Assembly (NCBI RefSeq): GCF_037042905.1
Contig: NC_087245.1
Span: forward strand, 6,388,001-6,452,000
Length of the DNA: 64,000 bases
Reading direction: 5' to 3'
Source of the DNA: Lytechinus pictus
Lineage: Eukaryota
This document shows, in pieces, positions 2,718 to 58,300 of this stretch. Each line of letters starts with the position of its first letter. The stretch's first letter is position 1. Position numbers and translations under genes: made by a program. The notes beneath the pieces are model-generated. The model saw only the letters and a list, made by a program, of their open reading frames with translations, did not search any database and was not told the origin of the DNA.

Positions 2718-5700
2718 GTAAGAGATTATCTGTTCCTTGTACCTGATTTTGCACATATTCTTGCTAACTTTTATGATGTTCCTGACCTTAAGACATTATT
2801 TAGAGATATTTCACGATTATGTATTGTAAATTTCCTAAAGGAGATCAATCTTTTTATTAGATTTTAGGTGGGAAAGTGTTCGAATCCCAATCACAACAGG
2901 TATACCCTTGGGCAAGGTATTTTATTCCAATTGTCTAGTCTTTCGGAGGAGACTCTAAGCCGTCGGTCCCGTGTAAAGGAGAGTCACACCATTTGCACGT
3001 TAAAAAACCTACTCCTCTTTTCGTAAAGAGTAGGGAAGTTATCCCGGGGAAGTAGTTAACGTATTAATTTATTACTGATAATTACTAATTTATAATCCTG
3101 TTCCTTTGTAAAGTTGCATTAGGGTAATTTGTATTGTATTATAGTAACCTTTCCAGATTAACTGTCCGACACTTATATGACACGCATGTGTTGATAGTGT
3201 CGATAATTGTTATCAATCAATCAATCATGTACCTTGTAGTGGTTTACCTCGAAGTCCTCTGCAATTTGAAAGCTCCATATAATCAAATATTTAAACAAAT
3301 AAAATCAAGGTTATACATGTAGACTGATTATGAGAATAATGTTTAGCCATTCAATCATAGTTTTCCATAGAATTATCATTATCATCAATTTGAATTAGTA
3401 CTATTATTCAAATCAAATCATATATTTCCACAATAACATAAAAACATTACAAATATGTACAAAATAGGAAACAAAAATAATTGAAAAGGAAAGTGAAACT
3501 GAGTTGTTCAAAAATAATACAAATAAATGTACATTACTGTGAGGGAGCCAAAGAAGACAAAATAAGTCTTAAAATCAGGCACCCAACACAAAATAAACAG
3601 ATAACTGCTATCAAAATAGACATTTCTTAACAATATATAGCATGTGAATATGGCTCTCATTCATAACTTTCAAAATAATAGTTAAGAAAAATCAACACAT
3701 TCATTAAAAAAATAAAATAGCATTACGTATGGGGAAAAGAATTTAGAATGATAACTTAAGTAATGACGTAAACATTACACACAAAAAAAGAAAGAAAAAA
3801 AAAGATAAGTTTGATTTGTAAGCTATACTGTACTTTGTTAAATTTTAATACAGACATCTTCGATATGATATTTCCATGACATGAGTTCATCAATATGGAT
3901 ACCTAGAAATTTTGAATGATTTGTATGTAATAATTGAGTTCCATTCATGTGTAATTTAATATCCTTAATATCATAATTAATGTTACTAAATACCATAAAA
4001 TTTGTTTTAGACATATTTATAACTAATTTATTACATTTTAACCAATTGCTTAAATTTTGCAGTTCATTGTTTAAAGTATAGGTTATAAAGGAAATATAGG
4101 TTATTATCATCATAACCATTTTTTTTCACATTCACTCAATTCAATTCAGTGTTATTTTTGTCCATTGGGATTTTTTTTTACATGACATAAAATACCTACA
4201 TTACAGGATTAAATTATTCAAATACACCTGAATGAAAGGCAAATATTTAAAAAAACAATAATTTACTGAACGGAATGCATATAATCACTCTTTAAGTACA
4301 ACTATTTTCTTTTATCATTATTGTGGTAGTGATGGCATAGTAGTAGTCATAATTGCAGGAGTAGTACTGTAACATTATCATTTCCAGTTCCCACATTGTG
4401 ATTAACATCAAGATTATATCAATATCAATATTTTACAGCTACTTGTATTGTTAGTGGACAGGGCCATTACAAGACATTTGACAACCATCACTATGATTTT
4501 GCTGGAAGTGGAACATGCTCTTATGTTCTGCTAAAGGACTGTTGGAACAAGGGCAACAATTACTCGGTTAGTGTGGAAAACGCTGAATGTGGAATGGAGG
4601 CCGTATCATGTGTCAAGGCAGTAGTAATAGATGATCATAATGAAGAAGTATCTCTGAAGATTGAACTGAGAAGAGGTCATAAGGTTTTCATTGATAAGAT
4701 GGAAGAGAAGCAGTATCCCATAATGGCCAGAAACTACTATTTGAACCAACCAACTAGCTCTCAAACAGCGGTAAGCTATTCTGCTTATATATTCATAGAA
4801 AATTCAAACCAACAAACAATCTATATGGCCTAGTTTTGATTCAGAACTTTACTCTTCCAGAGACATATTCTTTGATAACATCTTGAAAGAAGAAAAATGA
4901 GCTTTTGATCCTGCTAGCGAAAACAAAAAGAGAGGTGATAAAGATGGAAGTGACAATGCAATTGGTGGTGCTGTGAAGAAAGCTGTTTTTATGATGATAT
5001 GCTTACTTGTTGTAAATCACCTTATTTAATTGGCATGGCAATTTGAAAGTGTCCTATACTTTTTAAGCCTTTAGCCTCTCCATTTGTCTATTACCTTGCA
5101 TTTGATTGCCCTCCTTAGAAACCCTTGTGTGGTAGACCATATAGATGTAGACTGGAGCTACTTATTTCTGGTGGAGCTTGGTGTTTACAATGATGGACTG
5201 AGAACTCAAAAGTTATAGTGTTGCAATTGAGTTGCCATTGGTATCCAATCTGATTCAGACATTTTATGTAGTGCCTTTTCCTTTCAGTTACAAAGCACTG
5301 CACACACACTTCTGATTTATCTGTAGAGGGTCTATGAAAGCTGTTTCTAAGTTTAAAAGTAATACAATGGAACACTAATATTGGCAACTGGACTTTGCAA
5401 ACATCACACAGTGGCTTCTGTTTTTAAACAACACATTTATCACATAGTGGGACATTTTGCTTCATGCTTTTTTCATTGTTTCTTTTAATAGATCCAAAGC
5501 AGCTAAAGATATCTATTGAATGAGCGTACCTGTCTTACTGGCTGTTCTTTACTGCATTTTTTTTGTTCCTTCTCTGTCTGTATCAGTATTGTTGTATATG
5601 TTATATAATTATTATCTCTATTATTAGTCCGGTTTATAGAAGATAAACATCTTTAAATTTCAATGCAGTATTCTTTTTTTCCTATAGGTTTCAACTCATG

Positions 5701-31700: not shown

Positions 31701-34149
31701 TCAACATTTTGAACATTTTTGCATACATTCACTCACTGCCATGCCCGTCCCGGTAGCATGCATGATCCCTGTATATTGGCACACATGAGTGCATGCCCGT
31801 GCGCAAACTATGTGAGAATGTCTATTTGTTGGAACCATAATGCGTGCAAGTGTCAACAGGGCTCGACAAACTGACTCCTACCCTTGGTGCCATGGGCATA
31901 AAACATTCCCAATATACTTGTGTGTTAAAATGGCACTTCTATAAAAATCATAAAAAATAAATGTGAAAGTAGAGGGTCAAGTGTTTACTACCATTGGATA
32001 GGATATATATCTGACATTACATATCTGACCAGAAAAGGGTATCGTAGACAGCTCATTTTAAAAATAAACCGTCATTTATGAAGATAGCTATGATGGGATC
32101 AAATTCATCTCCTGAAACAGTAAAATAGCCCTGATTCTTCTGCCAGTCAAAAAATAGTTCCAAAGTCATTGATACATGTACATCTTCCCAATTTGGGCGA
32201 AGGTAATTCAGTAGTTACCATTTCTAGAATCAGTGTTAGATTTTCCAATCATATTCATACACTTTTGTCAGTTAGCAATATCAAATTTAAAAAAATTTGA
32301 ATGGGTTGGGTCAAACGAATATCTTTCGCCTTCCTGTTGTAATTAGGCTCATGGCACCCCTAACAATGGTACGATAGCTCCAATCGGTCTAGGGAGTGAT
32401 TTTTAGAAAAAACACTGGGATCCTTACTCTGACAAATTCTGTTTTATCTGACAGTTACTGTGGCAATAGTCAGACAGTTGTGCCTCTCAGCCAATCAAAA
32501 TCATAGAAGTTGTCAGGCAAAAAAAATGATGATGAAATGTTTTCCTTGATCCTGTTACATTGATGTGGCTTAGGTCAACATAGCTTGATTTTCCTTGAAT
32601 GATGTAAAACACAATTTGACTCCTTATACACATGTATATGAAATATTCATTTTTGACACCTTAAGTGTTATTCAATGGACAGTTTCTCTTTTTATATCAA
32701 ATGAATTCAATTTAAGAAAAAAACAATAGTGATTCAATAAAATTTGTTAATTGATTGACTCCCTCATTTCTGTACTGTACATGCTTTACCATTTATCACC
32801 ATTTCATGAAACTTAGCAGAACTTAAAAATACCAAACTTAGTGATCTTACATCCAGTTTTGATTGATTTTGGGAGACAGTGCTATGCCTCTAGTCTCGAT
32901 CTCTCTCTACCCCTCCCCCATCTCACTACCTCTTTATTAAAATTGACTTAATGTATAGATGGATTTTTTCCTTTTCACTGAACTCTCTGGCCCATATTCT
33001 GATAGCAGGTTTAACTTAAACTCAGGTTTAAAGTTGTGGTTTAAGTATTGATAGCCAATTGTTACATAAATCACTAACAGTAGAGAAATCATATTTCAGC
33101 TCATTTGGCTCTCAAATCATTCATAATTGTCTGGGAAGTATAAATAGATGATTGACTTCACCATCGATGAATCAGGGAAGAGCACAGTAAACATAAGAAA
33201 CATACAACTTAATAAATCTTTTGATACTTTTGGCTTCCCATATTTAAAGGGAAATGAAACCTTTGGAACAAGTGGGCTTGTGTGTAAACAGAAAAATCAA
33301 AGAAGAAGTTCAAAGAAAGTTTGAGAAAAATCAGACAAATAATGAGAAAGTTATGAGCATTTGAATGTTGCGATCACTAATGCTATGGGGATCCTCCGAT
33401 TGGCAATGCGACAAAGATGCGTGATGTCACATGTGAACAACTTTCCTGTTGATGGACTATAAAATACCCCCAAAATGTCTCTTTTTGTTCTTTCGTATGG
33501 TGATACCAACTCTTTTCCATAATGTATTCTTTGAAAATCTGTATTACATGCCCTCCTATAGAAAGAATACATGATATACTGATAGATGTGATAAAAGAGG
33601 CAGTTTAAGTGAAATATATACTAAAGTAACGGGAAAGTTGTTCACAAGTGACATCACACATCTTTATCGCATTGCCAATGGGAGGATCCCAATAGCATTA
33701 GTGATTGCAATATTCAAATACTCATAACTTTCTCATTATTTGTCTGATTTTTCTCAAACTTTTGTTGATCTGTTTCTTTAATTTTTCTTTTTTCACACAA
33801 GCTTTCTTGCTCCAAGGTTTCATTTTCCTTTAACTTTAAAGTTAAGTTAAACCCGACTTCAGAATATGGGCCTCTATGTCTAATGATAAAGGCCTTGAAT
33901 TGAAAATATATAATTTATTATAATATATTTGTTATAATTTCTACCCTATGACAGGTTGTGGATGGTCAGCTCAAACCACATTCCTATTGCACTTGTTGTC
34001 AACCTCACTCTGTTACAGAACAGTCCTATGAGGCATCATGTCCTGATGGGTCTAACATGACCATTTCTGTTCCTGTTATCACAAGCTGTACCTGTACTCC
34101 AATGGACTGTCCCACTAAAATCAACTTTGCATGGCTTTCACCACATTGA
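55..34149 (+). CDS. Gel-forming mucin (vWF D-assembly / PTS / CTCK), 5'-truncated by the window; 19 exons
   Basis: Exons with AG/GT borders and continuous phase: 55-197, 725-878, 2079-2331, 2671-2717, 4439-4770, 6093-6237, 6753-6917, 7579-7746, 8349-8595, 9699-9986, 10637-10683, 13625-13828, 16492(or 16501)-16679, 17259-17366, 17974-18259, 21005-21229, 21457-28890, 29553-29734, 33955-34149 (TGA). Motifs: VWD ([23 protein letters not shown]), C8 ([15 protein letters not shown]), TIL, Pro/Thr repeats, CTCK. Confidence 0.93.
910..1965. mobile_element. Tc1/mariner-like MITE (degenerate), same family as 18855-19662, with a short CGAACC repeat array at ~961-1065
   Basis: AGTGTGTTTCAATAAAAAAGTTTACAC...GTGTAAATTTTTTATACATACTG ends; internal similarity (ATCTGAGGACATAA) to 19213. 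Confidence 0.5.
2870..3227 (+). mobile_element. tRNA-derived SINE, 5'-truncated
   Basis: B-box GTTCGAATCCC at 2878-2888, CCTTGGGCAAGG core, (TCAA)n tail at ~3212-3227. Confidence 0.55.
3407..4095 (-). mobile_element. LINE (CR1/L2-group) remnant: RT C-terminal fragment plus 3' end
   Basis: ORF 3838-4119(-) [29 protein letters not shown]...[14 protein letters not shown] is typical of the RT thumb region; (ATTTG)n tail at ~3407-3420. Confidence 0.75.
4439..10683 (+). CDS. Mucin exons 5-11: VWD-C8-TIL (D2-like) plus TIL'/E' (D')
   Basis: [20 protein letters not shown] (4439-4770); [17 protein letters not shown] (6093-6237); C8 at 7579-7746; TIL at 8349-8595; second TIL at 9699-9986. Confidence 0.92.
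10764..12820. mobile_element. Non-autonomous Tc1/mariner-like DNA element inserted in a (TA)n tract
   Basis: TIR CACAACAAAAAAAGTAAGTCCCCCCT / AGGGGGGACTTACTTTTTTTGTTGTG with TA on both sides; no transposase ORF. Confidence 0.75.
13625..21229 (+). CDS. Mucin exons 12-16: D3-like assembly (VWD with GDPH, C8, TIL)
   Basis: [26 protein letters not shown] (13625-13828); [10 protein letters not shown] (17259-17366); [28 protein letters not shown]...WRTNDLC|PMQCD (17974-18259 joined to 21005-21229). Confidence 0.92.
14153..15118 (+). mobile_element. Helentron-associated (HINE/DINE-1-like) non-autonomous element
   Basis: Subterminal IR GTCTCACCTGCA (14155) / TGCAGGTGAGAC (~15086), 5' partial IR GTGAGAC (~14174), (GGC/GAC)n microsatellite, ~160-190-bp central repeats, inserted in a T run with no TSD. 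Confidence 0.7.
15119..15850. repeat. ~58-bp tandem repeat, ~13 copies
   Basis: Unit GCTACCATTTTTTCATCAGCGCTTGGGCATTGAAGGAATGAATCCTGCCAGGTGCCTA; the first copy (from 14143) is split by the HINE. Confidence 0.92.
18723..20124. mobile_element. Kolobok-like MITE with a nested Tc1-like MITE (18855-19662)
   Basis: Outer ends AAGGGGTACT...AGTACCCCTTTAA; inner CAGTGGGTATCAATAAAAAGTTTACACTTAG...CTAAGTGTAAACTATTTTTGATATGCACTG. Confidence 0.6.
20129..20979. mobile_element. Kolobok-like MITE
   Basis: TTAA-GGATGTTCCACAGTTA...TAACTGTGGAACGTCC-TTAA; ends 25 nt before mucin exon 16. Confidence 0.7.
21457..28890 (+). CDS. Mucin PTS (O-glycosylation) domain, single 7,434-bp exon of 42-nt tandem repeats
   Basis: Acceptor caacag at 21456, donor gtttga at 28891. 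Uninterrupted frame (ORF track 21666-28910). 14-aa unit [14 protein letters not shown] made of two 7-aa halves. Confidence 0.93.
29553..34149 (+). CDS. Mucin C-terminal cystine knot (CTCK), exons 29553-29734 and 33955-34149
   Basis: ECVPR...NGCVP...ECAGTCDS...YCTCCQP...SCPDG...SCTCTPMDC: 11 Cys with CxGxC, CxCC and CxC, then TGA. Confidence 0.9.
30397..31862. mobile_element. PIF/Harbinger-like non-autonomous element
   Basis: Imperfect TIR GCCTAGTTCACACTTGCAGGCATT / AATGCGTGCAAGTGTCAACAGGGC. Confidence 0.45.
32989..33872. mobile_element. Harbinger-like MITE (3-bp TSD TCT) with a nested palindromic Kolobok-like MITE (33248-33829, TTAA TSD)
   Basis: TCT-GGCCCATATTCTGA...TCAGAATATGGGCC-TCT; inner TTAA-AGGGAAATGAAACC...GGTTTCATTTTCCT-TTAA with long inverted arms. 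Confidence 0.75.
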
Positions 34150-43359: not shown

Positions 43360-46300
43360 ATGGGTCTGTGTTTATTTATTAAGCCTTTCCGAAGTCTTAA
43401 AGGAAAATTACAAATTAAAGGAGGTACGTATTGCCCACATCATGGTTATAAAATTATGTTCAGGCCCATATTAACATCTTTTCATCCAGGAAAAAATGAC
43501 TACCGGAATTAATCTAAAATAAATCTTTGCTCTAACTTATTTTGTTGCATAAATGTATACAAGGGAGTCTTATAGATCTACAGGTATGGAAATATGATGT
43601 AATATAAGATTTAATTTAATAACATCAGATAAAGGAAAGTGAGGGCATGATATCATCAACCAACCTATTGCATATTTATGATGACATTCAAATAATTGAC
43701 AAACTTTAACATTTAATAACTTTATTTGTTATAAGATTTTCATTAATCTTTCAACATTTTGCTGGATGAAATTTACTCTAATACTAGATATAAGTATTTT
43801 CAGCCTGGAAAAAATATTCAACCTGTTTTTAACCTTTGCACATTTTATATTGTATTGTAATATCTGAAAATAACATTATCAAGATGTGAATATGTAATAA
43901 ATTGAACGATGGTACCAAAATAAACATTTCATTCGCTTTAGAATATCAATAAAAAAAGATAGTTTAGACATTGTAAGTAGACTTACTCTTTTACTCGGTA
44001 ATGTTTAAATTTTAAATCAAGTCATAAACTGATTTATGGAGAAGCTTGTAAATAATCGAATACATTTTTGTTTAAAAAAAATGAAATCCGAAAGAAAATA
44101 CCCTGCTGATGTAAAGAACACAGTATGATCACAGTGTGTTCATAATTTATAGTGGACTGTGGGAAAGATTCACACTGCTAAAATGCTCAAATTCAACATT
44201 GTAGATATATTTCACAATGTGGACACCCGGCTCGACAGTGTGACTGTTCAAAGCGTGTTCACATTGTCAACTATGATTTTCACTGCTGAAATTAATGCTC
44301 AAATTAAACAGTGTGAAGGTGATTTCACACCGTGTCACACTATTTTTCCAGTAAGGTAAGTCAGGCTTGCACGGATTATATATAAACATTGCTGCCCTCT
44401 ACTTTCGTTGATTTCTTGTATTTCAGACTTAAAGCGACACTCACTGACCTCTCTTGTGCGGAGTTCTTTTATTGGAGCCAGTATTGACAGGTATATTTTA
44501 CGTATATAAATAAATGAATTTATATCATTAATTTATTCATATTTATCATTTCATTCACCTACTCGTGTTTGAGCTAACTCACAATTAGTTGTCTGTAAAA
44601 AAAAAAATCTTTATTCTGTGATAAGATGATAATGATGATAATAATAGGAATATAGGCCTACATGGCCCTCTTCGTCCAACACCACCCTTTGTCCAAAGGC
44701 ACCCCCCCCCCCCCCCCCGTTTAGCCGAAAGTGCGTTGGGACTTTTTTTATACGCCATTCTTGATAGATTCAGCGAGTTTAGACTTTAAATTTAAGCCTC
44801 AAACAGCGATTTCAAAGAGGCTATCGTCCGGATATTCTTCTACGAGTTTTATTTTTGGTTTTTCAATTTTTTCTGCGTTTATTAAAAGAAATGTTGCCCA
44901 AGCGAATTTCCCCTGAAAAACAAATACACGCACATTCTGCTAAGCACGCACGCACACTTTTTTTTCCTCTTTCTCTCTCTCTCACACACACTCAAAATTG
45001 GGAGCTGACCGTGCAAAATTGACTATTTTTTACGTTTTTCGAAAAAAAAAATGGGTTTGAAGCTCGTATATACCCTCGGGGATTCCCTATTTGCGTATCC
45101 TATCACACCCATGACACCTCCCTTCCATTACTTTTATTTTTCTAACACTTTTAACATACTTATGTCTGAACAAAATTCCAGGAGGAGCCTCTATTTCCTT
45201 GGCGATGACAGTTCGCCTTACTTCACTACAACCAATGTGCATCGTAAAAATGACACGTTCATGGAATATGGGTATGAAGCTGCTTCAACTCTAGTAGATA
45301 TTTTATCATTTTAGAAGCTAGAAATACCACATCATCTGCAACTTTAAAATAGTCATGCAAGGTTTTTTTTATGACATGAGAACATTTCATATTGCAAAGT
45401 GATTTACCTCGATCAGTTTGTCTGTATACATTCCTTACACAATCCATACTCCGTTTCACTACTTTGGGATAAAGTCAAATCGACACCGTGTTTACTTTAA
45501 CGGTTCCGATTAAATCAAATCTCGCTTTATTTTATATTAAGTCGACTTAATTCGAAGGAGATTTTACAATTTTCATGTATGAGATAATCAATTCATCATA
45601 CATTGGTAATATTGATATTAATATCTATTTCAATCATTATAATAGATTATTGATGTGACAAATTCTTTTCGTTGTGTTAAGTGACAATATTTACCCTCCC
45701 TTTAAATTTTATAGAAAAAGTGACAATGAGTCAGTGGGCGCTGCAACGGCTGATGCTAAAGAACTTGAAAGGATAAAGGTAGGCCTATACATGATGTCTT
45801 TATTTCACTATTTCAAAAACTCTCCGTTGAACCATGGACCTATTGTTGAACAAAATGCAAGCAACCTTTTTACTCATTAAAGATACCAAAATCTTAATTG
45901 AAATCTTACTATAGGCCCATGATAAAAATCGTGTGGTTCAACACAACATAGGCCTACTACATCTAGTTCAAGAATTAAAATATATATGAAACATGATTTT
46001 AATACCCCATGATATTTCACACAGTTTCACTAATATTTCTCGATTTATTTTCCTTTTATGCCTTGTGTGGATATTTGGTAGCCAAATAATTGCCCAACTT
46101 TGGAAAAAAAAAATTTCTTTAATATCCTAAATGTTATTTTGATATAATGACACCAATTATAAGAAGAGTGAGCTATTTTAATGATAAACAATGTAAGGGA
46201 CCTAGAACAATGAAATATGCCAATGTGTGGCTCAGTTGGATGGGCGCAAGATTGACCTATAAGCTTTTTACCCGGAGAATAAAGCTGAGTATCATTATTC

Positions 46301-49300
46301 TCAGTAGGTCTATAAATGGGACCAATGTCAATTAGCATTCATTAACGTTATCAATAAATCTATTCTATAGACATGAAAACGCAAGTATACAGTTATGAAC
46401 ATACATGGTATGCATTTCTGTTCTTATTTTCTTCACTTTTTTTTCCGTCAGTCCGAAGCAGAAGAAGAATTGGATAGGTATTCTCAAGGAGCTGTAGATG
46501 CTGCACTATTGGTATGTATCCCAACATGCACCTAATTGATCATGGTCAATGCACCCCCCAAATCGATTACGCCTTCCGCTTGCACACATTTATTGCTTCT
46601 TTCACAACCACATCATACAATTTTATACTTGTTTTGTGCTTATATATACTTTTGTATATCACCTTTATTCGAACAAACAACAAAAAGAAGTACCATTATA
46701 ATAAGTTCAAGTTACATTTTAGGACAAAGTACATCATCAATGTCATAAGTAGTGAACTAGCGATAGACAATATGACAAGAAGATATACATAAAACGATTT
46801 TCCCCACATTAACCCTATTTTAGGCCAGGATAAATAAAAGGGGAATTTGACCCCCCCCCCCTTCAGATCTGGGCCGCTGATTGCACGATCGCCGCGGAAA
46901 TTTGCACGCGCGTAGAATCGGATGTAAAGTACAAGATCGTATAGTAAAATTTTCAAAAGATTAATTGTTTATAGTTTTAATTAATTAATCATGCAAATAA
47001 GCATATGAAATTTGCCCTAAATATGTTTTTGTACGTAGTTTTGCCTTTAACTCTCTTTATATAGCTAGTAGAATGCTAATTCATTGTAAGTGTATCAAGT
47101 TTTACATTTCTAACAAAATTTAATGTCTACAAAAAATTGCCAAAATATAATTAATTTCTTATGTATTTTATTGTTTATAAATTCTTATGTATTTCTTTTT
47201 TTCGAATATTTTTTTATTGTTTTTTCCGATGAACTTTCCCGCATAAAATAAAATAAATCCATTTAAACCAAAAAAAGTAAAGTAATCATACATTTATGAT
47301 TTTTGGTTGAAAAACACAATTGACTTTGTACACAGAATCAAGTTTTTGAGCAATTTTAGGTCTGGCATGCACTCACAAAATGATGCGTAATTTCGGAACC
47401 GCGTACCCGTGTGTCACAAAATTGGTCTTAAAAGATGCGCAAGACTTGAAAATAATATCGTCGCGGTCAAAAAATTTCGCGCGGCGGCGTAGTGACGAAA
47501 TGTGTCGAGGGGGGGGGGGGTCAAATTGACCCCCCAGTATAAGGGTTAAAAAAGGTAAGTAGTTATAGGTGAGACCTCATACCAACTTGACCTTTGACCC
47601 GGTCAGCCTTTGACCTTTAGCCCGGTCAGCCTTTGACCTTTAGCCCGGTCAGCCTTTGGCTAGGTCACCCATGACCTTTAGTCCGGTCAGCCTTTGACCG
47701 CATGACCTTTAGTCCGGTCAGCCTTTGACCTTTAGCCTGGTCAGCCTTTGACCTTTAGCCCGGTCATCCATGCCCTTTACCCCGGTCAGCCTTTGACCAC
47801 ATGACCCAATGGGTTGACCCAGACTTCCGGCCAGCCATGAAATGGTATTTTATCCACCGTGATGTCATAGAATTACCCTTATCGCACCATCGGTATTGCA
47901 CCACCGTTGTGTCATCGCCAAGTATGGATAAATTTCGGTCGACCTTATCGCACGATGCAGCGACGTTGCACGGGTATTTTTAGCATATGATACGATGCAC
48001 AAAACAGACGTATGATTTCTGCACAGTTTCCTATTGAAAAAGTGATCTTTCTCCGCCTATATACCAGCAGATATGTCAAGTGCCTCGCATGACGTCACCA
48101 TGAAATGGTGTTAGCGACGCAACCACCGTGATGTCATCCCAGGGAATTACCCTTATCGCACCGTATCGGTATTGCACCACCGTGGCGCAATCGTCACGTA
48201 TAGGATACGATGCACAAAACAGACGTATGATTTCTACACAGTTTCCTATTGAAAAAGTTATCTTTCTCCGCCTACCAGCAGATATGTCAAGTGCCTCGCG
48301 GTACACGAATCGATCGCCCCATGCACGGCCAACGCGCGTCATTGAACTTGGGAGATCATATTCAAGGTGAAAGCCGGCTCTCTCTGCCTCTTATTACAAC
48401 AATTATTGGTAATCCAACATGTGATTATAATAGTGACATCTCAAGCTCTACTCATTCCAGACTTTTACACATTAAAACTCTCTGACTTTTTCATACTGTT
48501 TTGTTCATACTTTTCATTTAACTCACATGACCTAGCTGCCCGGCTCTCTGACTCGCAAAAAGTATACTATATTGAAACCAGTAGATGACTCCTTTAAATC
48601 AACTTCATTCATCCGCAGTACAGATGGTGATAACATGAAACACTATACAGTCAAGGATGATTCTTTATTCTTATCATTTATTCTATTCCATTTCAATGTA
48701 GATAGGTTCAGATACTGTATAAACAGCAGATTTTGATACAAAGGTAAAATAATGTAAGTTATGTTCTCAAATTATGTTGTAATAACAAACTAATTGTTAA
48801 CTGTTCATTGTTAATATTAAAGTGAAGTTCTCGTTTTTCTATTTCTTCGCTTAACTTAATGGATTGTAACACATGTCTATGGATGGCATTCAGAAAATAT
48901 GAACACAATGAACTTCAAACTGTCATTTATGTTGACGGCGTTTTCTTGGATTATTATTATTTGACAAGCTGATGTCTGTGCCTTTAGTTGTAGACTCCAT
49001 CTTCACCCTCCGTTTCTTCTCCACCATCATCATCGTCATCGTCACCTTGATACTGGAATAAACCATCGAATTGTGAACCATGCCTGGCTAACACTCTCTG
49101 TACGGATTTCCGGAATTCCATGCCATTCTCTAATCTTTCCGTGAGATCGGACACGATTTCACGTCAGCGTCTTCGAGGTACACGTTCTGCTGCAAGAACT
49201 GAGAGTAAAGATCGAAAAAGATGCGTTTGACTGCCCAGAGTAGTTTCACGTGAGCCTTTAATTGCTTTAGCGTCTTCTTCTTCCATTCCTTCTGAGATGT

Positions 49301-52300
49301 ATTTCTGATATTTTTCGTCTCTCAAGTCCTCGGTGGTTGTCATGGCTTGCTCTAACCATCCTCGATAAGCGAGGTTATCTTCAGTTTCTTCCATGTTTGC
49401 TGTCATTGACGATTCGTGTCCATCGCTTTCTGATACGCTCGTTTCGGAATCATCGTTGGATTCTTCAACTCTTTGCATTTGAGAGGATGGGTCGGAGTCT
49501 TCATTATCACTCGTTTCTTCTCCAGTATCATGCTCGTTTTGTTCATGCCTCTGCATATCATACTTCCTACTAAAGGTTTTATCGCATCGTGAACAAGCGT
49601 AACGGTTGGACATATCCAACGTATTCATGTTGACTCGATGATTATTTGCTGGGAAATGAAGAAAATTAACGTTCAACCTTGTAATAATACGTAATCATGA
49701 ACTTCGATTTTTACAGATTCTTACGAATTCTATGGATTCTTACGGACTTTTACGGATTCTTACGGATTTTTACGGATTCTTACGGATTATTACTGATTTT
49801 TACGGATTCTTACAGATTTTTACGGATTCTTACGGATTTTTGCGGATTCTTACGGATCATATAGCTTACGGATTATAGCTTACGGATTTTTACGGATTTT
49901 TTACGGATTCTTACGGATATTTTACGGATTCTTACGGATTTTTACGGATTCTTACGGATTTTTACGGACTTTTGCGGATTCTTACGGATTCTTACGGATC
50001 ATATAGCTTACGGATTATAGCTTACGGATTTTTACGGATTTTTTACGGATTCTTATGGATATTTTACGGATTCTTACGGATTTTTACGGATTCTTACGGA
50101 TTTTTATGGATTCTTACGGACTTTTGCGGATTCTTACGGATTCTACAGATTAATTAATGCTTTCATAAAATCTTTCATATAATCTCAAGGAAAATATGTT
50201 CATCCACGTTGGAATGACCCATGCAGCATGGGAATCTGCAAGAATCCGTAAGAATCCGCAAAAGTCCGTAAGAATCCGTAAAATATCCATAAGAATCCGT
50301 AAAAAATCCGTAAGCTATATGATCCGTAAGAATCCGTAAGAATCCGCAAAAGTCCGTAAGAATCCGTAAAAATCCGTAAGAATCCGTAAAAATCCGTAAG
50401 AATCCGTAAGAATATCCGTAAAATATCCGTAAGAATCCGTAAAAATCCGTAAAAATCTGTAAGCTATAATCCGTAAGCTATATGATCCGTAAGAATCCGC
50501 AAAAATCCGTAAGAATCCGTAAAAATCTGTAAGAATCCGTAAAAATCAGTAATAATCCGTAAGAATCCGTAAAAGTCCGTAAGAATCCATAGAATTCGTA
50601 AGAATCTGTAAAAATCGAAGTTCATGATTACGTATTATTACAAGGTTGAACGTTAATTTTCTTCATTTCCCAGCAAATAATCATCGAGTCAACATGAATA
50701 CGTTGGATATGTCCAACCGTTACGCTTGTTCACGATGCGAAAACCTTTAGTAGGAAGTATGATATGCAGAGGCATGAACAAAACGAGCATGATACTGGAG
50801 AAGAAACGAGTGATAATGAAGACTCCGACCCATCCTCTCAAATGCAAAGAGTTGAAGAATCCAACGATGATTCCGAAACGAGCGTATCAGAAAGCGATGG
50901 ACACGAATCGTCAATGACAGCAAACATGGAAGAAACTGAAGACAACCTCGCTTATCGAGGATGGTTAGAGCAAGCCATGACAACCACCGAGGACTTGAGA
51001 GACGAAAAATATCAGAAATACATCTCAGAAGGAATGGAAGAAGAAGACGCTATTAAAGCAAAGGCTCACGTGAAACTACTCTGGGCAGTCAAACGCATCA
51101 TTTTCGATCTTTTCTCTCAGTTCTTGCAGCAGAACGTGTACCTCGAAGACGCTGACATCAATCGTGAAATCGTGTCCGATCTCACGGAAAGATTAGAGAA
51201 TGGCATGGAATTCCGGAAATCCGTACAGAGAGTGTTAGCCAGGCATGGTTCACAATTCGATGGTTTATTCCAGTATCAAGGTGACGATGACGATGATGAT
51301 GGTGGAGAAGAAACGGAGGGTGAAGATGGAGTCTACAACTAAAGGCACAGACATCAGCTTGTCAAATAATAATAATCCAAGAAAACGCCGTCAACATAAA
51401 TGACAGTTTGAACTTCATTGTGTTCATATTTTTTGAATGCCATCCATAGACATGTGTTACAATCCATTAAGTTAAGCGAAGAAATAGAAAAACGAGAACT
51501 TCACTTTAATATTAACAATGAACAGTTAACAATTAGTTTGTTATTACAACATAATTTGAGAACATAACTTACATTATTTTACCTTTGTATCAAAATCTGC
51601 TGTTTATACAGTATCTGAACCTATCTACATTGAAATGGAATAGAATAAATGATAAGAATAAAGAATCATCCTTGACTGTATAGTGTTTCATGTTATCACC
51701 ATCTGTACTGCGGATGAATGAAGTTGATTTAAAGGAGTCATCTACTGGTTTCAATATAGTATACTTTTTGCAAGTCAGAGAGCCGGGCAGTTAAAATGAA
51801 AAGTATGGAAATATGAACAAAACAGTATGAAAAAGTCAGAGAGTTTTGATGGGGAAAAGTCTGGAATGAGTAGAGCCTGAGATGTCACTATTATCATGAT
51901 TATAATCACATGTTGGATTACCAATAATTGTTGTAATAAGAGGCAGAGAGAGAGTCGGTTTTCACCTAGCTTTCCAATAGGATATCCCAAGTTCAATGAC
52001 GCGCGTTGGCCGTGCATGGGGTGATCGATTCGTGTACCGTGAGGCACTTGACATATCTGCTGGTAGGCGGAGAAAGATAACTTTTTCAATAGGAAACTGT
52101 GTAGAAATCATACGTCTGTTTTGTGCATCGTATCCTATACGTGACGATTGCGCCACGGTGGTGCAATACCGATACGGTGCGATAAGGGTAATTCCCTGGG
52201 ATGACATCACGGTGGTTGCGTCGCTAACACCATTTCATGGTGACGTCATGCGAGGCACTTGACATATCTGCTGGTATATAGGCGGAGAAAGATCAATTTT

Positions 52301-55300
52301 TCAATAGGAAACTGTGCAGAAATCTTACGTCTATTTTGTGCATCGTATCCTATACGTGACGATTGCGCCATGGTGGTGCAATACCGGGTAAATGGTAATT
52401 CCCTGGGATGACGTCACGGTGCTTATGTAGCCGGTGACGTCATGCGAGGCGCTTGACATATCCGCTGTAGGCGGAGAATGATCACTTTTTAAATAAGAAA
52501 CTGATGTCTTTTTGTGCATCGTATCGTGTGCCCGTGCAACGTCGCTGCATCGTGTGATCGACCGAAATTTATCCATACGCGGCGATGACGCAACGGTGGT
52601 GCAATACCGATGGTGCAATGAGGGTAATTCCCTGACATCACGGTGGTTGCGTAACCGTGTCGTAATACCATTTCACAGTGACATGGCTGACCGGAAGTCT
52701 GGGTCAACCCATTGGGTCATGTGGTCAAAGGCTGAACGGGGTAAGGGTCATGCGGTCAAAGGCTGACCGTGCCAAAGGTCATTTGGTCAAAGGCTGACCA
52801 GGCTAAAGGTCAAAGGCTGACCGGACTAAAGGTCATGTGGTCAAAGGGCATGGGCCAAAGGTCAAAGGCTGACAGGCTAAAGGTCAAAGGCTGACCTGGC
52901 TAAAGGTCATGTGGTCAAAGGGCCAAAGGTCAAAGGCTGACCGAGCTAAAGGTCATGCGGTCAAAGGGCATGCGGTCAAAGGTCATGGGTAAAAGGTCAA
53001 GTTGGTATGAGGTCTCACCTATAACTACTAAGGTATACATGTAGGGGGCTGCGAGTCCCTGGGCGGAGAGACCGGTGTCACGACCACAGTCATACAAACT
53101 CATATGCGGCGCACAATTGCCCTCATTTGTTGGCGATTGTATTGCAGGAAAGAAAATTGAAATGTAATTCTTTCAGTAAGTCCACCTTTGAATTTCAGTT
53201 GCTTTTAGGAAACATTTCGGCAGATTCTAACCAGAGATTACTTTGGTTGATTTTATTTTCATATTCACCAAAAGATAATAACAGATAACAAATAATAATA
53301 ATAATAAATAAATTAATAAATTAATTAATATAGATACATAAATAAAATGCATACATACTTAAATAAAAAGATTTTAATAAATATCATCCATTATTATAAC
53401 TGAAATTATTTGTCCAACAGACGATAGCTGAAGAATATTTGGAGAATTTCGCTGAAACATTTGTAACAACTATTATTAAGGTACGTACAATAATATATTT
53501 TGCAATATCTATTCATGTCCTAATTTAAGATCGGCAAAATAAAGTCCAGACATAATTTCAAAGCCTTGTACACACCAAACTTTATTATGTTGCGTTCGTC
53601 AATATTTTTCAGGAGGTGATTGTCCTCAGTTCATTATATTGAAATAATGACAATATAGGCCTACTCTCCTTTAACTCATATAGATGTAGAGATATTATCT
53701 CAGTTAAAATCCTAAAGGTGCCTCATCAAGTGCGACCACGTCATTGGCTAAATAATATTTTCTCTGATTCCTATTTCATTATAAGTGCCCAGAATACTAA
53801 ATACCTTCAATTACTTGTTCTTATTTATATCTGAAAGGGGCGCTTTCCCTTTCAAAGTGACACTACTTTCCCATTTTCTGAGTGTTTTTTTTTTTTTTAA
53901 TCTATGATGAGAGCTTTTTCATGCGCGTAGAATTGATATCAATAGCACAAGTCAAATCATTGATGGGACTACAATATTATGTCATTGTCACATTTTATTG
54001 CTGTCGTTCGTAATACGGGTCCCTTTCTTTTTCTGTAATTCATTCGTCTCGGGATCACAAGCAACCATTTACTCTATTACTTATGCAGAACACCAACAAG
54101 GAAACAGACGGCGCCAATTTAGAAAAACTGAAACAAAGGTCAACCGTTGAAGGACCTTTTAAAGTAAGCATCTATTCACACTCTAAAAAATATTGGGTAA
54201 AAGTGCTCCATGAGGGTAATTATGTGTCCAACCAACATTGGGCATTTCTTTTGGGCATTTTTATTTATCCAGTGTGATGAAAGATGTGCCCATTCTTAAG
54301 TAATTGCTGCTTATTTGTTTAACCTTACTAATATGCTTCCCGCATTGGGTAAAATACTACCCAAAAGTGGTTGGACACATAATTACTCTCTTGGTGGTAA
54401 AAAAATTCACCCAATTTTTTTACAGTGCAGTACCAAGTGATTCAGAATAAGATTACACCTCAAAATTGCCAATTTAATGAAAAAAAATGGCCGGAACACA
54501 AAACATTGATACATGTTCTAAATTGATACAACTAATTTCATGTGGTGTGTTTACGTTTAGATGATGTATTCTTTGTTGTGATAACTTAAACATGATCTCA
54601 TGGTCGCATGTACATGTATTTTGTGACGAGTGATGCATATAGGACATGCTTTGTACTATGATGTTAATTAATCTTATGTACTGTTGTGAAAGAAGAAATA
54701 AACAAACCATGAACAATATGACGTACAATTCAATTTGCACTAAAGGAAGACAGGAATGCAGTGAACGTCGTCATTATCCTTCATGATTGCAAAATCAATT
54801 TTCAGTTAAGGTGTTTATTGAACAATAATGTTAACCTTTAAAAAACAAATATCTTGCAAAAAATCTTGTAGGATTATGACATTTTGATCCATTCATTGCA
54901 ATCATGTCATTCTTTGGTGCATTTCAAATTTTAAATCACACAAAAGAATATCTCCTAATCATCCATACTTAAAGTATACCACATGGAATGATGATACGTT
55001 TTTTAGAAGGCACTATTTTAGGACATGAGGGTATTTTTTTTTAATCATTCTTAAATTGTACACATTTTCCGACTCACTGGGTGAATTCTTTTAAAGGGTG
55101 TATCAGAATGAAAGGTAATCCAAATCTACGGGGCGAATATTCAACGATTATTAAATATTCGGTTCAATTCAATTCAATTTATTTCCAAATTCATCAAAAA
55201 TAACACAATGAGAACGAAATTAAATTATAGATAAAGAAATACAGAAAAACAGAACATAACCAAACAAAAAGTGGTAATAGTAAAATAACAGTTGGCACAC

Positions 55301-58300
55301 ATGTATGACAAAATAGATGAAAAAAAAATAATGAAATGGGGCATGCACTGAAAAGTTTTAAAACGGCTTGTTGAAACGGGCATATACCAAAAATTTATTG
55401 GTCTTTGAACAAATGCATATAATCAGTATATTGTATGGCTGTGGCAAGTACCAAAGAATAAAATAATAGAAATAAGAATCGTCATTCTCCCATAAAGAAA
55501 TCACACAATTTGTAATTCATATTCTCTCGAATAAATCGCATACAATCGTCATTCCGACGCTTCGTTATTGCGAAGGTTCGTAATTTCGAAGGTTCTTTAG
55601 TCCGAAAACGAAATAAGGTTCGTTAGTCAGGAAACGAATTAAGGTTCGTTATTCCGAAGGATCGTTAATCCGAAAACGAAATAAGGTTCGTAATTCCGAT
55701 GGTTCGTTAGTCCGAAATCGAAATGAGGTTCGTAATTCCGAAGGTTCGTCAGTCCGAAAACGAAAATAATGAGGTTCGCAATTCCGAAGGTTCGTTCGTC
55801 CGAAAACGAAATGAGGGTCGTAATTCCGAAGGTTCGTTAGTCCGAACACGAAATGAGGTTCGTTAATCTGAAGGTTCGTTAATCCGAAAATGAAATAAGA
55901 TTCGTTTGAAGTACTTATTCTATTCAATCATTCCATGAAGTTCTCAAAATATTCCTTTTTAGGTCTGATCGTCAAAACTTATCAGCTGGCGCTGCGTGCT
56001 CGCATTTTCATTAGTATGTATAAACCTACTTCTCTATGAATTTTGACAAACTACTTAAAATCCCTCTTTATGACAATTTATCAAAAGTTTCAGCTCGCAC
56101 TTTGCGCTCCTAGTAATTAGTTCCATACGCGTCTTGTTCATAATCACAAACATTGCTAAGAATGTTCAACTTTCAGGACAAAATTTTCTGAACATTCTAT
56201 AAAATTAAGCTCGCTTCTCGCATTCGCATTATTCAATCAGGGATTAAATTACAATTACAGATACAATTATTTTGTTTATAAAAATAAAACTAAGAAGTCA
56301 CTGTTCGGACGACCCCTTCAAAGAAAAAAAAAAAGCTTTGATCAGCTTTCCTTTTCGGATTAACGAACCTCATTTCGTTTTCGGACTAACGAACCTTCGG
56401 AATTACGAACCTCATTTCGTTTTCGGATTAACGATCCTTCGGAATAACGAACCTTATTTCGTTTTCGGACTGACGAACCTTCGGAATAACGCCACAAATG
56501 TTCGGATTAACGTACCCTTTTTCGTTTTCGGATTAACGAGCATCGAGTTATAGGCAATTTAGGTGTTTCGGAATTACGAACCTTCGGAATAACGAACCTT
56601 CGGAATAACGAATCTTCGGAATTACGAAGTGTAACCCGAATAAATAGACCGACTCCACCATCGCGGCCTTTTAAAGGGGAAGTTCACCCTGACAAAAAGT
56701 TTATTGTAAAAATAGCAGAAAAAATAATAAAAAATATTGCCGAAGGTTTGAGAAAAATTCATCAAATAATTAAAAAGTTATTAGAATTTCAATTATTTGA
56801 TTTGTGACGTCATATGCGAGCAGCATTCCTACATAGCGAATGGTAAAAAATCAATGAAATGTCATTTTCTCAGAAAATTGGAAATGGTTTTTACTGTATC
56901 TTTTGTATATCAATAGACAAATCATTTCACACCCGATCATGAATAGAAAACAAAATTAAGTCATCAGGAACCATATAAAATTTGAAATCCATGCATTTTA
57001 TATTACATAACACATGGGGCAGCTGCTCGTTTATGACGTCACAAATCCAAAACTTTGAACTCTAATAACTATCTTATTCTTTAACGGATTTTCCTCAAAC
57101 CTTCACCAATATTTTTTACTATTTTTTCTGCTATTTTTACAACAAAGTTTTTTTCAGGGTGAACTTCCCCTTTAATAGGTCAAAATGCACTTACAACCAT
57201 CAAATAAGAAGGAGGCATGAGAGTTTGTTTAGATTCACGTTTCCGATATCCCAATCACTAAACAGCTAAATCTGATATTTGAAAGAAAAATGTGTAGGTA
57301 CAAAATTTTGAAATAACTTCTTGCACGGAAAGGATCATGCTAAAGTTTCAGAGGTCAAGTAGTACTTTGCATTGGTGAAGCTGTATATAATGTAAATCCT
57401 TACCATTTCTTACGAATCGTCCGTCTTCCTGTATTGACGGATTCTCTTGTGAAAAAGAATATTTAAAATTCCGAATAATTAATTTTTACAAATAGGAGAA
57501 GGTTTCGATTAAATTTACTGAGCAAACGGATGAGTTGTTGACGGTTTCATTTTCATTCAAATAATTATTACATCATTCGATATCGTTTTTACGACGTGCA
57601 TGACAAGACAAAAAATTCTAGCAAACACAATAAGAATATGCCTACGTAAATAGAAATGACAAAAGGTAAAATATACTTTAAATCACTACCTTTTATTGAT
57701 ACTTAAAGAGCAGTGTTAAATCAATCTAAAATGGAATGCAATAACATTGATTTGTTATTCAAGTTACAGCATCTCCAAGTCTTGTTTACAATGGATTGTT
57801 CTATGCATTGATCTTCCGTTCATGGTAGAACTAGGATTCGTCAATCAGATGCGATCTATCGAGATCGATCAGTCAAGGTTAGAGGCTCAGCAGCTATTTG
57901 ACATAAAACTTCATCTCTATTTTTCGATCCATTATCCTTCGCACAATTACGGCGAGAATATTGATCGGCCTCATTCATTGCAGCATACAATTTTTTTGTA
58001 GTGTTCACTGGCGACCTCTTAATCTCACTATCTTTGGCACAAAGCGACGACTCAAGCTCCACTGATTTCCCATCAATGTTTTCTACTTTCAAATCTGCAC
58101 TAAATTTCTCAAGTTCGTCTAAGCGATGAATGAACCTCAATAAATGATTATCGATTGCCTCTCAAACAGTCTTTTCGATTCAGATTTGAGGAAATCTTTG
58201 ACAGTCCTATGGCTGCAGCCTCTGCGGCAGGTCTTGCCTATTAAGATGATTAATTATAGCCGACATGTTGGTTCAAAGGTTGATGAAATACATTAATTTG

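What the first reader, a model, noticed from the sequence alone, without database searches (positions are those of the whole stretch)
48984..51342. Two outward-facing zinc-finger ORF copies with complementary lesions reconstruct one ~216-aa protein
Seen: the left copy (-, 49628 to 48984) keeps the C2H2 finger YACSRCDKTFSRKYDMQRHEQNEH but frameshifts near 49260. The right copy (+, 50694-51342) loses the finger through a 2-bp deletion at ~50740 but keeps the C-terminal 192 aa. Joined: finger, long Asp/Glu/Ser tract, helical domain (WLEQAM...DEKYQKYISEGMEEEDA...LLWAVKRIIFDLFSQFLQQ...VLARHGSQFDGLF), acidic tail. Inference: this is an accessory DNA-binding or chromatin-type protein of the parent Polinton and the only gene the mini-element kept. 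Intra-palindrome gene conversion could restore an intact copy.
Basis: partly seen in the sequence, partly recalled or inferred. Interest (0 to 1): 0.72.

Follow-up and report, generated by a model that had tools for sequence, protein, structure and literature searches.

The report
Decayed gene pair in palindromic Polinton
A 5.5-kb mirror-image fragment of a virus-like Polinton transposon in a sea-urchin intron carries two broken copies of a small zinc-finger gene, and that gene is a free-standing version of the tail found on these elements' DNA-packaging motors.

Summary
The two ORF copies are real (0.5% substitutions) and sit in a 5,472-bp palindrome with AGTAGT ends and a 6-bp target duplication. 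The damage is not cleanly complementary. The left copy has two frame breaks. The right copy has the finger break plus an in-frame insertion and a substitution at a near-invariant position, and both arms depart from relatives at the same site. The gene belongs to a family of 121 clusters, with intact multi-copy members in Lytechinus pictus. It aligns along its whole length with the C-terminal extension of zinc-finger A32-type Polinton packaging ATPases (HHalign 99.7%). One metagenomic contig shows a candidate end, then an outward-facing relative of the gene, a short-repeat array and the ATPase, which is the layout of one arm here. Best reading: a fold-back satellite copied one Polinton end twice, carried the terminal gene along by position, and both copies then decayed. 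Rescue by gene conversion has no support. No Pfam family or fold match was found for the helical domain. A satellite-encoded packaging decoy is not excluded (about 10%).

The parts
47552..47557 (+). Left 6-bp target-site duplication (AAGGTA)
   Evidence: identical to 53030-53035
47558..53029 (.). Whole element, 5,472 bp, palindromic, 5'-AGTAGT...ACTACT-3' ends
   Evidence: end motif as in PMC8097293 section 7
47587..47798 (+). Left terminal tandem array (23-bp unit)
47835..48300 (+). Left subterminal long repeats; the right arm (52041-52682) has about 167 nt more, one extra unit
48984..49628 (-). Left gene copy: finger intact; frame breaks at ~49260 and ~49163; reading stops at 49164
49706..50144 (+). 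Left 10-bp tandem array (about 44 copies), 78 nt upstream of the start codon
50145..50231 (.). Non-palindromic centre, 87 bp, unique in the window
50232..50616 (-). Right 10-bp tandem array, inverted (about 38 copies)
50694..51342 (+). Right gene copy: frame break in the finger at ~50740; in-frame 3-nt insertion at 51051-53; substitutions at 51100 and 51113; helical domain otherwise open (domain HMM E 1e-44)
52715..52999 (-). Right terminal tandem array, rearranged relative to the left
53030..53035 (+). Right 6-bp target-site duplication (AAGGTA)

Best explanation
The element is a non-autonomous fold-back derivative of a Polinton/Maverick. SHOWN: Polinton end motif on both sides, a precise 6-bp target duplication, two inverted arms of about 2.6-2.8 kb around an 87-bp centre, no replication, integrase or capsid gene, and both gene copies broken. 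INFERRED: during protein-primed strand-displacement replication the polymerase switched template in or near the 10-bp array upstream of the terminal gene and copied one end twice. The product has two origins and two integrase ends, and a helper Polinton integrated it into a host intron. The gene came along because it is the outermost gene of that end, and the two copies then decayed separately. For the intact protein in the parent, SHOWN: finger + acidic linker + five-helix domain + acidic tail, collinear with the C-terminal extension of zinc-finger A32-type packaging ATPases. INFERRED (about 40%): a nuclear DNA-binding partner of the packaging motor that recognises the element's own repeat arrays. 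A transcriptional regulator of the divergent promoter is about as likely, and the two roles are not exclusive.
For: Ends and TSD match 5'-(AGT)2//(ACT)2-3' and 6-bp TSDs in PMC8097293. Arms exceed the TIR ranges given there (46-1,447 bp) and in bioRxiv 2023.08.22.554363 (100-1,500 bp). phmmer with the window's own right-copy piece reached ATPase fusions (P0119, P0074, P0104). HHalign of solo versus fused profiles gave 99.7%, E 1e-26, 179 columns. In 5 of 11 metagenomic loci the domain lies in the same ORF as a Pox_A32 ATPase above Pfam's cut-off; in L002 an rve + chromo integrase follows. L008 shows AGTAGTTA at 93, 22-bp repeats at 179-253, the solo relative pointing outward with its stop 1,261 bp from that motif (window: 1,426 and 1,687), a 9-bp array, then a divergent zinc-finger ATPase. 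One contig in run X10 appears to hold part of the centre between the two arrays (two joints of equal depth), a hint of another palindromic copy. Template switching yields subgenomic molecules in protein-primed phi29 (PMC4974454 passage).
Against: No full-length parent of this family was seen, so long gene-bearing TIRs are not excluded. L008 is one distant relative (23% identity). Its end is only a candidate: the 8-mer has a 6% chance in that stretch, also occurs inside L001, and shared 7-mers were 28 versus 19.7 shuffled, reached by 100 of 1,000 shuffles. The 11 loci were fetched with an ATPase-fusion query, so they are not an unbiased sample. The outer arms differ more (4-8%, repeat-rich) than the gene region (0-1.4%), which one fold-back does not predict by itself, although a test for clustered substitutions was not significant (p 0.79). 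The X10 joints have only 22 nt on the short side. No evidence of binding or function exists.
Confidence: 0.6

Rival explanations
1. The parent Polinton has unusually long TIRs that include this gene at both ends, and the element is a plain internal deletion joining the two TIRs, before or after integration.
For: Outer arms differ in repeat number and sequence more than the gene region does. Two 99%-identical L. pictus gene models with consecutive LOC numbers lie on one contig, and two relatives have consecutive XP numbers; this fits paired copies under either model.
Against: Needs TIRs near twice the published maxima. No parent was seen with the gene at both ends.
Confidence: 0.2
2. Palindromic satellites keep this gene on purpose: an ATPase-less copy of the motor's tail recruits or jams the helper's packaging machinery, as Rpp does for phage satellites. 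This insertion is simply a dead copy.
For: The only gene kept is collinear with the packaging ATPase's tail. 33 of 34 solo forms with an H-x4-H finger group together (support 91/73, not strong). Six near-identical intact 225-aa gene models exist in L. pictus. Low-level RNA reads from relatives are denser over the ORF than over the 3' flank (depth 5-10 versus under 2). Precedent: PMC6739421 abstract.
Against: Both copies here are broken. The genomic context of the intact relatives is unknown. In L008 the solo gene sits beside an ATPase, so it can be an ordinary gene of a helper-type element. Position explains retention without selection.
Confidence: 0.1
3. Some or all lesions are consensus artefacts from polishing a long palindrome with reads of both arms and of other family members, and the real locus has at least one open copy.
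For: Indel events match or outnumber substitutions inside the ORF (4 gap runs versus 3 substitutions). Five of the ORF's events cluster in about 110 nt. Both arms carry similar short A/T-rich insertions a few bases apart. None of the rows shown from the 4 runs supports the window's own state at the listed sites (tables were truncated).
Against: The 7.46-kb mucin frame is unbroken. A 7-nt loss is not a typical read error (general knowledge). None of the runs is known to be the source individual, so disagreement is expected for other copies. Most Mavericks are decayed (96% of vertebrate loci, PMC8097293).
Confidence: 0.1

Closest known systems
Polinton/Maverick elements (polintoviruses, adintoviruses; PMC8097293, PMC11071296)
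   Same: AGTAGT//ACTACT ends, 6-bp TSD, an accessory-type gene near the end; distant relatives of the gene are fused to the A32-type ATPase, in L002 followed by an rve + chromodomain integrase.
   Different: 5.5 kb rather than 12-25 kb; no polymerase, integrase, ATPase, protease or capsid gene found; arms of 2.6-2.8 kb make up nearly the whole element.
Non-autonomous Polintons (Kapitonov and Jurka 2006 / Repbase; recalled, not read) and the gene-less palindromic Polinton satellites noted elsewhere in this scan (unchecked AI notes)
   Same: Polinton ends, short TSD, whole-element palindrome, presumed dependence on a helper.
   Different: This one carries a protein-coding gene in each arm; the three palindromic families from other genomes are described in those notes as gene-less.
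Zinc-finger A32/IVa2-type packaging ATPases of invertebrate Polintons (P0119, P0104 from Argopecten irradians, L002-L006)
   Same: Finger, acidic linker, five-helix domain and acidic tail are collinear with the ATPase's C-terminal extension.
   Different: No ATPase core. The finger ends H-x4-H like the ATPases' N-terminal finger (5 of 5) and unlike their internal finger, which ends in Cys; HMM scores did not separate the two clearly.
pm gene of vertebrate Mavericks (PMC8097293)
   Same: Conserved ORF of uncertain function lying next to atp, the position the domain occupies in the fusions.
phi29 subgenomic template-switch molecules (PMC4974454) and PICI Rpp (PMC6739421)
   Same: The first is a precedent for subgenomic molecules made by template switching in a protein-primed replicon; the second for a satellite protein that redirects a helper's packaging.
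   Different: Both are bacterial, with no sequence relationship shown; they are analogies only.

Membership tests
Polinton/Maverick lineage (derivative) | 5'-(AGT)2//(ACT)2-3' end motif | tested here: met
   Ends AGTAGTTA / TAACTACT; motif in PMC8097293
Polinton/Maverick lineage (derivative) | 6-bp target-site duplication | tested here: met
   AAGGTA on both sides
Polinton/Maverick lineage (derivative) | Terminal inverted repeats | tested here: met
   arms longer than the published 46-1,500 bp
Autonomous Polinton/Maverick | Encodes pPolB, rve integrase, ATPase, protease and capsid proteins in 12-25 kb | tested here: not met
   5,472 bp; longest frames are the two gene copies (214 and 176 aa stop to stop), with no room for the core genes
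Fold-back (one-end) satellite | Both arms derive from one end of a parent with short TIRs | tested here: inconclusive
   Layout of one arm resembles L008; no full parent seen; no own genome held
Fold-back (one-end) satellite | Multi-copy family that moves as a palindrome | tested here: inconclusive
   Relatives in runs of three organism labels; one weak centre-spanning contig
C2H2 zinc-finger protein (PF00096) | C-x2-C...H-x3-5-H finger above the family cut-off | tested here: inconclusive
   All four ligands present in the left copy; 23.8 bits versus cut-off 25.2; modelled as a beta-beta-alpha finger at pLDDT ~95 in natural relative P0003
A32/IVa2 packaging ATPase | P-loop ATPase core | tested here: not met
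   No ATPase family hit for either window piece or P0003; only the C-terminal extension is shared
Vertebrate Maverick PM | Sequence homology to PM | not tested
   No PM sequence at hand; positional resemblance only
Packaging-redirecting satellite protein (Rpp-like) | Binds the helper's packaging machinery and the satellite's DNA | not testable with these tools
   Needs biochemical work

The most novel reading that the evidence does not exclude
Palindromic Polinton satellites of sea urchins encode a free-standing, ATPase-less copy of the helper's packaging-motor tail (finger + five-helix domain) that binds the satellite's repeat arrays and diverts the helper's packaging. That would be a eukaryotic counterpart of phage-satellite packaging piracy, with the gene held in two mirror copies that back each other up.
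Probability: 0.1. Interest if true: 0.8.

Novelty: new variant of a known kind. Interest (0 to 1): 0.4.

Why it matters
The locus itself is a dead insertion. Its value is as a pointer. First, it defines a Polinton protein module with no Pfam family or fold match found here, which occurs both fused to the packaging ATPase and as a separate gene. Maverick packaging has never been seen at work, and this small soluble domain is a concrete handle on how the motor might find its genome. Second, it adds a gene-bearing example to palindromic Polinton satellites, whose shape is what protein-primed strand-displacement replication would produce. Third, it explains several odd L. pictus gene models in which the front of this gene is joined to host enzymes.

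Tried and rejected
Own-genome search: no genome held. Locus scans that found nothing: viral contigs with A2, P0074, A6, A7 and an end pattern; metagenome contigs with A2. Two alignments were too divergent to scan with. A search for longer homologues found 0 of 8,000 candidates of 666-2,000 aa (weak). P0119 against phage records: no match.

Fold searches: BFVD gave no match at E <= 0.001 for either model; PDB by VIA gave best Z 7.3 and 7.1 over 62-64 residues, unrelated helical hairpins. This shows neither a new fold nor absence. ESM Atlas gave only generic finger clusters or nothing. Homodimer prediction for the domain returned no verdict. Rfam: no match in the element. Run search listed no holder on record as RNA.

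An arm-divergence gradient was tested for clustering and not supported. An N-terminal versus internal origin of the solo finger was not resolved by HMM scores. The L007 upstream ORF has a DTDS motif that I recall as PolB-like, but Pfam and PDB searches gave no hit, so it is not counted. dN/dS was not computed because no DNA of the intact relatives was available.

Literature: ten searches listed no paper describing palindromic non-autonomous Polintons or this domain. I saw listings and abstract starts for most; Kapitonov and Jurka 2006, Pritham 2007, Starrett 2021 and Repbase were not read, and no supplements were opened, so prior description is not excluded.
Full report
1. What is in the sequence. 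The finding lies inside one element at 47558-53029 (5,472 bp). It begins AGTAGTTA, ends TAACTACT and is flanked on both sides by AAGGTA. The (AGT)2//(ACT)2 motif and 6-bp duplications are the commonest Maverick end signature (PMC8097293, section 7 and passages read). The element is a palindrome. From each end inward come a 23-bp tandem array, subterminal long repeats, a non-coding flank, the gene pointing outward and a 10-bp array; an 87-bp unique centre joins the arms. It sits between two 60-nt AG...GT segments with open frames (46452-46511 and 53421-53480), so most likely in a host intron. The closest named relatives are Lytechinus pictus proteins at 92-96% identity, so the host is inferred to be a sea urchin.

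2. The lesions. The picture is less tidy than described. The left copy has a second break, 7 nt short at ~49163. At the 49260-69 / 51051-60 site both arms depart from the family: the right copy has 3 extra nt that listed relatives lack in all 4 runs laid, and its spacing in this motif is one residue longer than in 39 of 39 relatives matching the motif. The site lies between two of the three columns that are at least 90% conserved in a 64-sequence alignment. The right copy also changes the third such column, conserved in 62 of 64, and one more residue. So neither arm holds a family-typical C-terminal half. Whether the lesions are real could not be settled, because none of the 4 runs laid (of 24 listed) is known to be the source individual. 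A 7.46-kb repetitive mucin frame in the window is unbroken, which argues against frequent indel errors, but long palindromes are a special case.

3. The protein family. Searching with the unaltered right-copy piece gave 11 hits among 114 candidates and 121 clusters at 50% identity, 55 of them at E <= 1e-10. Intact 225-aa relatives about 67% identical occur as 6 RefSeq models on at least 4 chromosome-scale contigs of L. pictus, 99% identical to each other, as expected of a young mobile family. AlphaFold2 on the natural relative P0003 gave a finger (pLDDT ~95), a disordered acidic linker and a five-helix domain (pLDDT ~97); the domain alone in P0007 gave the same helices. Several relatives have a PPSKKQRV stretch in the linker that resembles a nuclear localisation signal (recalled). 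No Pfam family covers the helical domain.

4. Link to the packaging ATPase. The unbiased phmmer list contained proteins in which the domain follows an A32/IVa2-type ATPase or its C-terminal half (P0119, P0074, P0104); P0104 is from the scallop Argopecten irradians. Profile comparison aligns the solo protein from finger to tail with the ATPase's C-terminal extension at 99.7% probability over 179 columns. A metagenome scan with an ATPase-fusion alignment returned 11 loci from 321 candidate stretches. Nine of the 11 contain the domain: 5 in the ATPase's own ORF, 3 in a separate + strand frame, and 1 (L008) as a separate gene on the opposite strand. Pox_A32 scores pass Pfam's cut-off in 8 of the 9 ATPase ORFs scanned, and in L002 an rve integrase with a chromodomain follows, the adintovirus integrase type (PMC11071296, passages read). 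These loci were found through ATPase motifs, so they show context and not frequency. Of 249 sequences held, 103 had a near-complete domain: 13 with ATPase motifs upstream, 36 with an H-x4-H finger and no ATPase, 3 with a Cys-ending finger, and 51 with neither, many probably truncated gene calls. The tree used the first three classes (52 rows, 50 distinct; the 51 left out); 33 of 34 solo forms grouped with support 91/73.

5. Position in the parent. L008 has AGTAGTTA at 93, a 22-bp repeat at 179-253, the solo relative at 1354-1971 pointing outward, a 9-bp array, and a divergent zinc-finger ATPase from 2437. One arm of the window element has the same order up to the array and then turns back. The stop codon is 1,261 bp from the motif in L008 and 1,426 and 1,687 bp from the ends here. 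This is one distant relative and its end is a candidate only (8-mer chance 6%; shared-word test p about 0.10). It also removes the need for selection to explain why this gene alone is present.

6. Mechanism. Most likely (0.6) the polymerase of a replicating Polinton switched template near the 10-bp array and copied one end twice; a helper's integrase inserted the product, leaving the 6-bp duplication; both gene copies then decayed. Template switching producing subgenomic molecules is reported for phi29 (PMC4974454, passage read); that those molecules are palindromic is recalled. Arms of 2.6-2.8 kb exceed published TIR lengths. One contig in run X10 appears to carry 22 nt of the centre between the two arrays, a weak sign of another palindromic copy. 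Unchecked notes from this scan describe a 4.3-kb Polinton-ended palindrome in this genome and gene-less palindromic families in other genomes; I did not test them. Rivals are internal deletion of a long-TIR parent (0.2), selected retention of a packaging decoy (0.1) and consensus artefact (0.1). For the intact protein my best guess is a DNA-binding partner of the packaging motor (about 0.4), with a transcriptional role about as likely. Adenovirus IVa2 combines both jobs (recalled). RNA run X23 laid 500 reads on the 6-kb stretch, 461 of them under 95% alike; depth was 5-10 over the right ORF and under 2 over its 3' flank. That hints at low expression of relatives and says nothing about this locus.

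7. Comparison and novelty. The element belongs to the Polinton lineage by its ends and fails the test for an autonomous element. The protein is not an ATPase and not a multi-finger transcription factor. It may be related to the pm gene that lies next to atp in vertebrate Mavericks, which I could not test. Ten literature searches listed no description of palindromic non-autonomous Polintons or of this domain. Papers seen: PMC8097293 (section 7 and passages), bioRxiv 2023.08.22.554363, PMC6431247, PMC4974454, PMC11071296, PMC11131425 and PMC3671162 (passages), PMC6739421 (abstract and outline). The founding Polinton papers and Repbase were not read and no supplements were opened; they may already list such elements or ORFs.

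8. Verdict. Observation partly confirmed, interpretation partly supported. The headline idea of complementary lesions awaiting repair does not hold up. What remains is a decayed gene-bearing palindromic Polinton derivative and a module shared with packaging ATPases for which I found no annotation. New variant of a known kind; interest 0.4.

Noticed in passing
window 46813-47545: A 733-bp element with TTAA on both sides and CCCT...AGGG ends (piggyBac-like, label recalled) ends 6 nt before the Polinton's left TSD; very high depth over its laid part in runs X2 and X10.
   Followed up: partly
window 46452-46511 and 53421-53480: Two 60-nt AG...GT segments flanking the element encode amphipathic-looking helices resembling AKAP RII-binding segments (recalled); Pfam gave no hit at E <= 5. 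Further small candidate exons near 44428-44489, 45710-45780 and 54086-54140.
   Followed up: partly
window 4402-28910: Gel-forming mucin-like gene: VWD (4402-4830), C8 (17956-18390) and a 7.4-kb Thr/Pro exon of 177 copies of a 42-bp unit.
   Followed up: partly
window 55546-56628: Foldback-like arrangement of 16/26/42-bp repeats in inverted orientation around a ~440-bp core.
   Followed up: no
window 33247-33831 and 56667-57179: MITE-like inverted repeats with arms of 239 and 158 nt at 83-85% complementarity.
   Followed up: no
P0011, P0021, P0001 (L. pictus gene models), P0058, P0090: The front of this gene is joined to a hydroxylysine kinase-like (P0011) or sialyltransferase-like (P0021) model, repeated in tandem (P0001, P0058), or joined to ubiquitin-like domains (P0090); annotation chimeras or true exonisation.
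   Followed up: no
L001 128-1587 and 2676-3029; L002 1449-2603: Polinton neighbourhoods: a two-finger C2H2 ORF and a second unannotated ORF divergent from the ATPase and a broken rve integrase in L001; an intact rve + chromo integrase after the ATPase in L002.
   Followed up: partly
window 49701, runs X2 and X9: Contigs from two organism labels both stop matching at 49701, just before the 10-bp array, with 69-79 nt left over; relatives may differ upstream of the gene.
   Followed up: no
window 50717-51319, run X23: First mates lie mostly on the coding strand of the right copy, which in most stranded libraries would mean antisense RNA; depth is low and library strandedness unknown.
   Followed up: no
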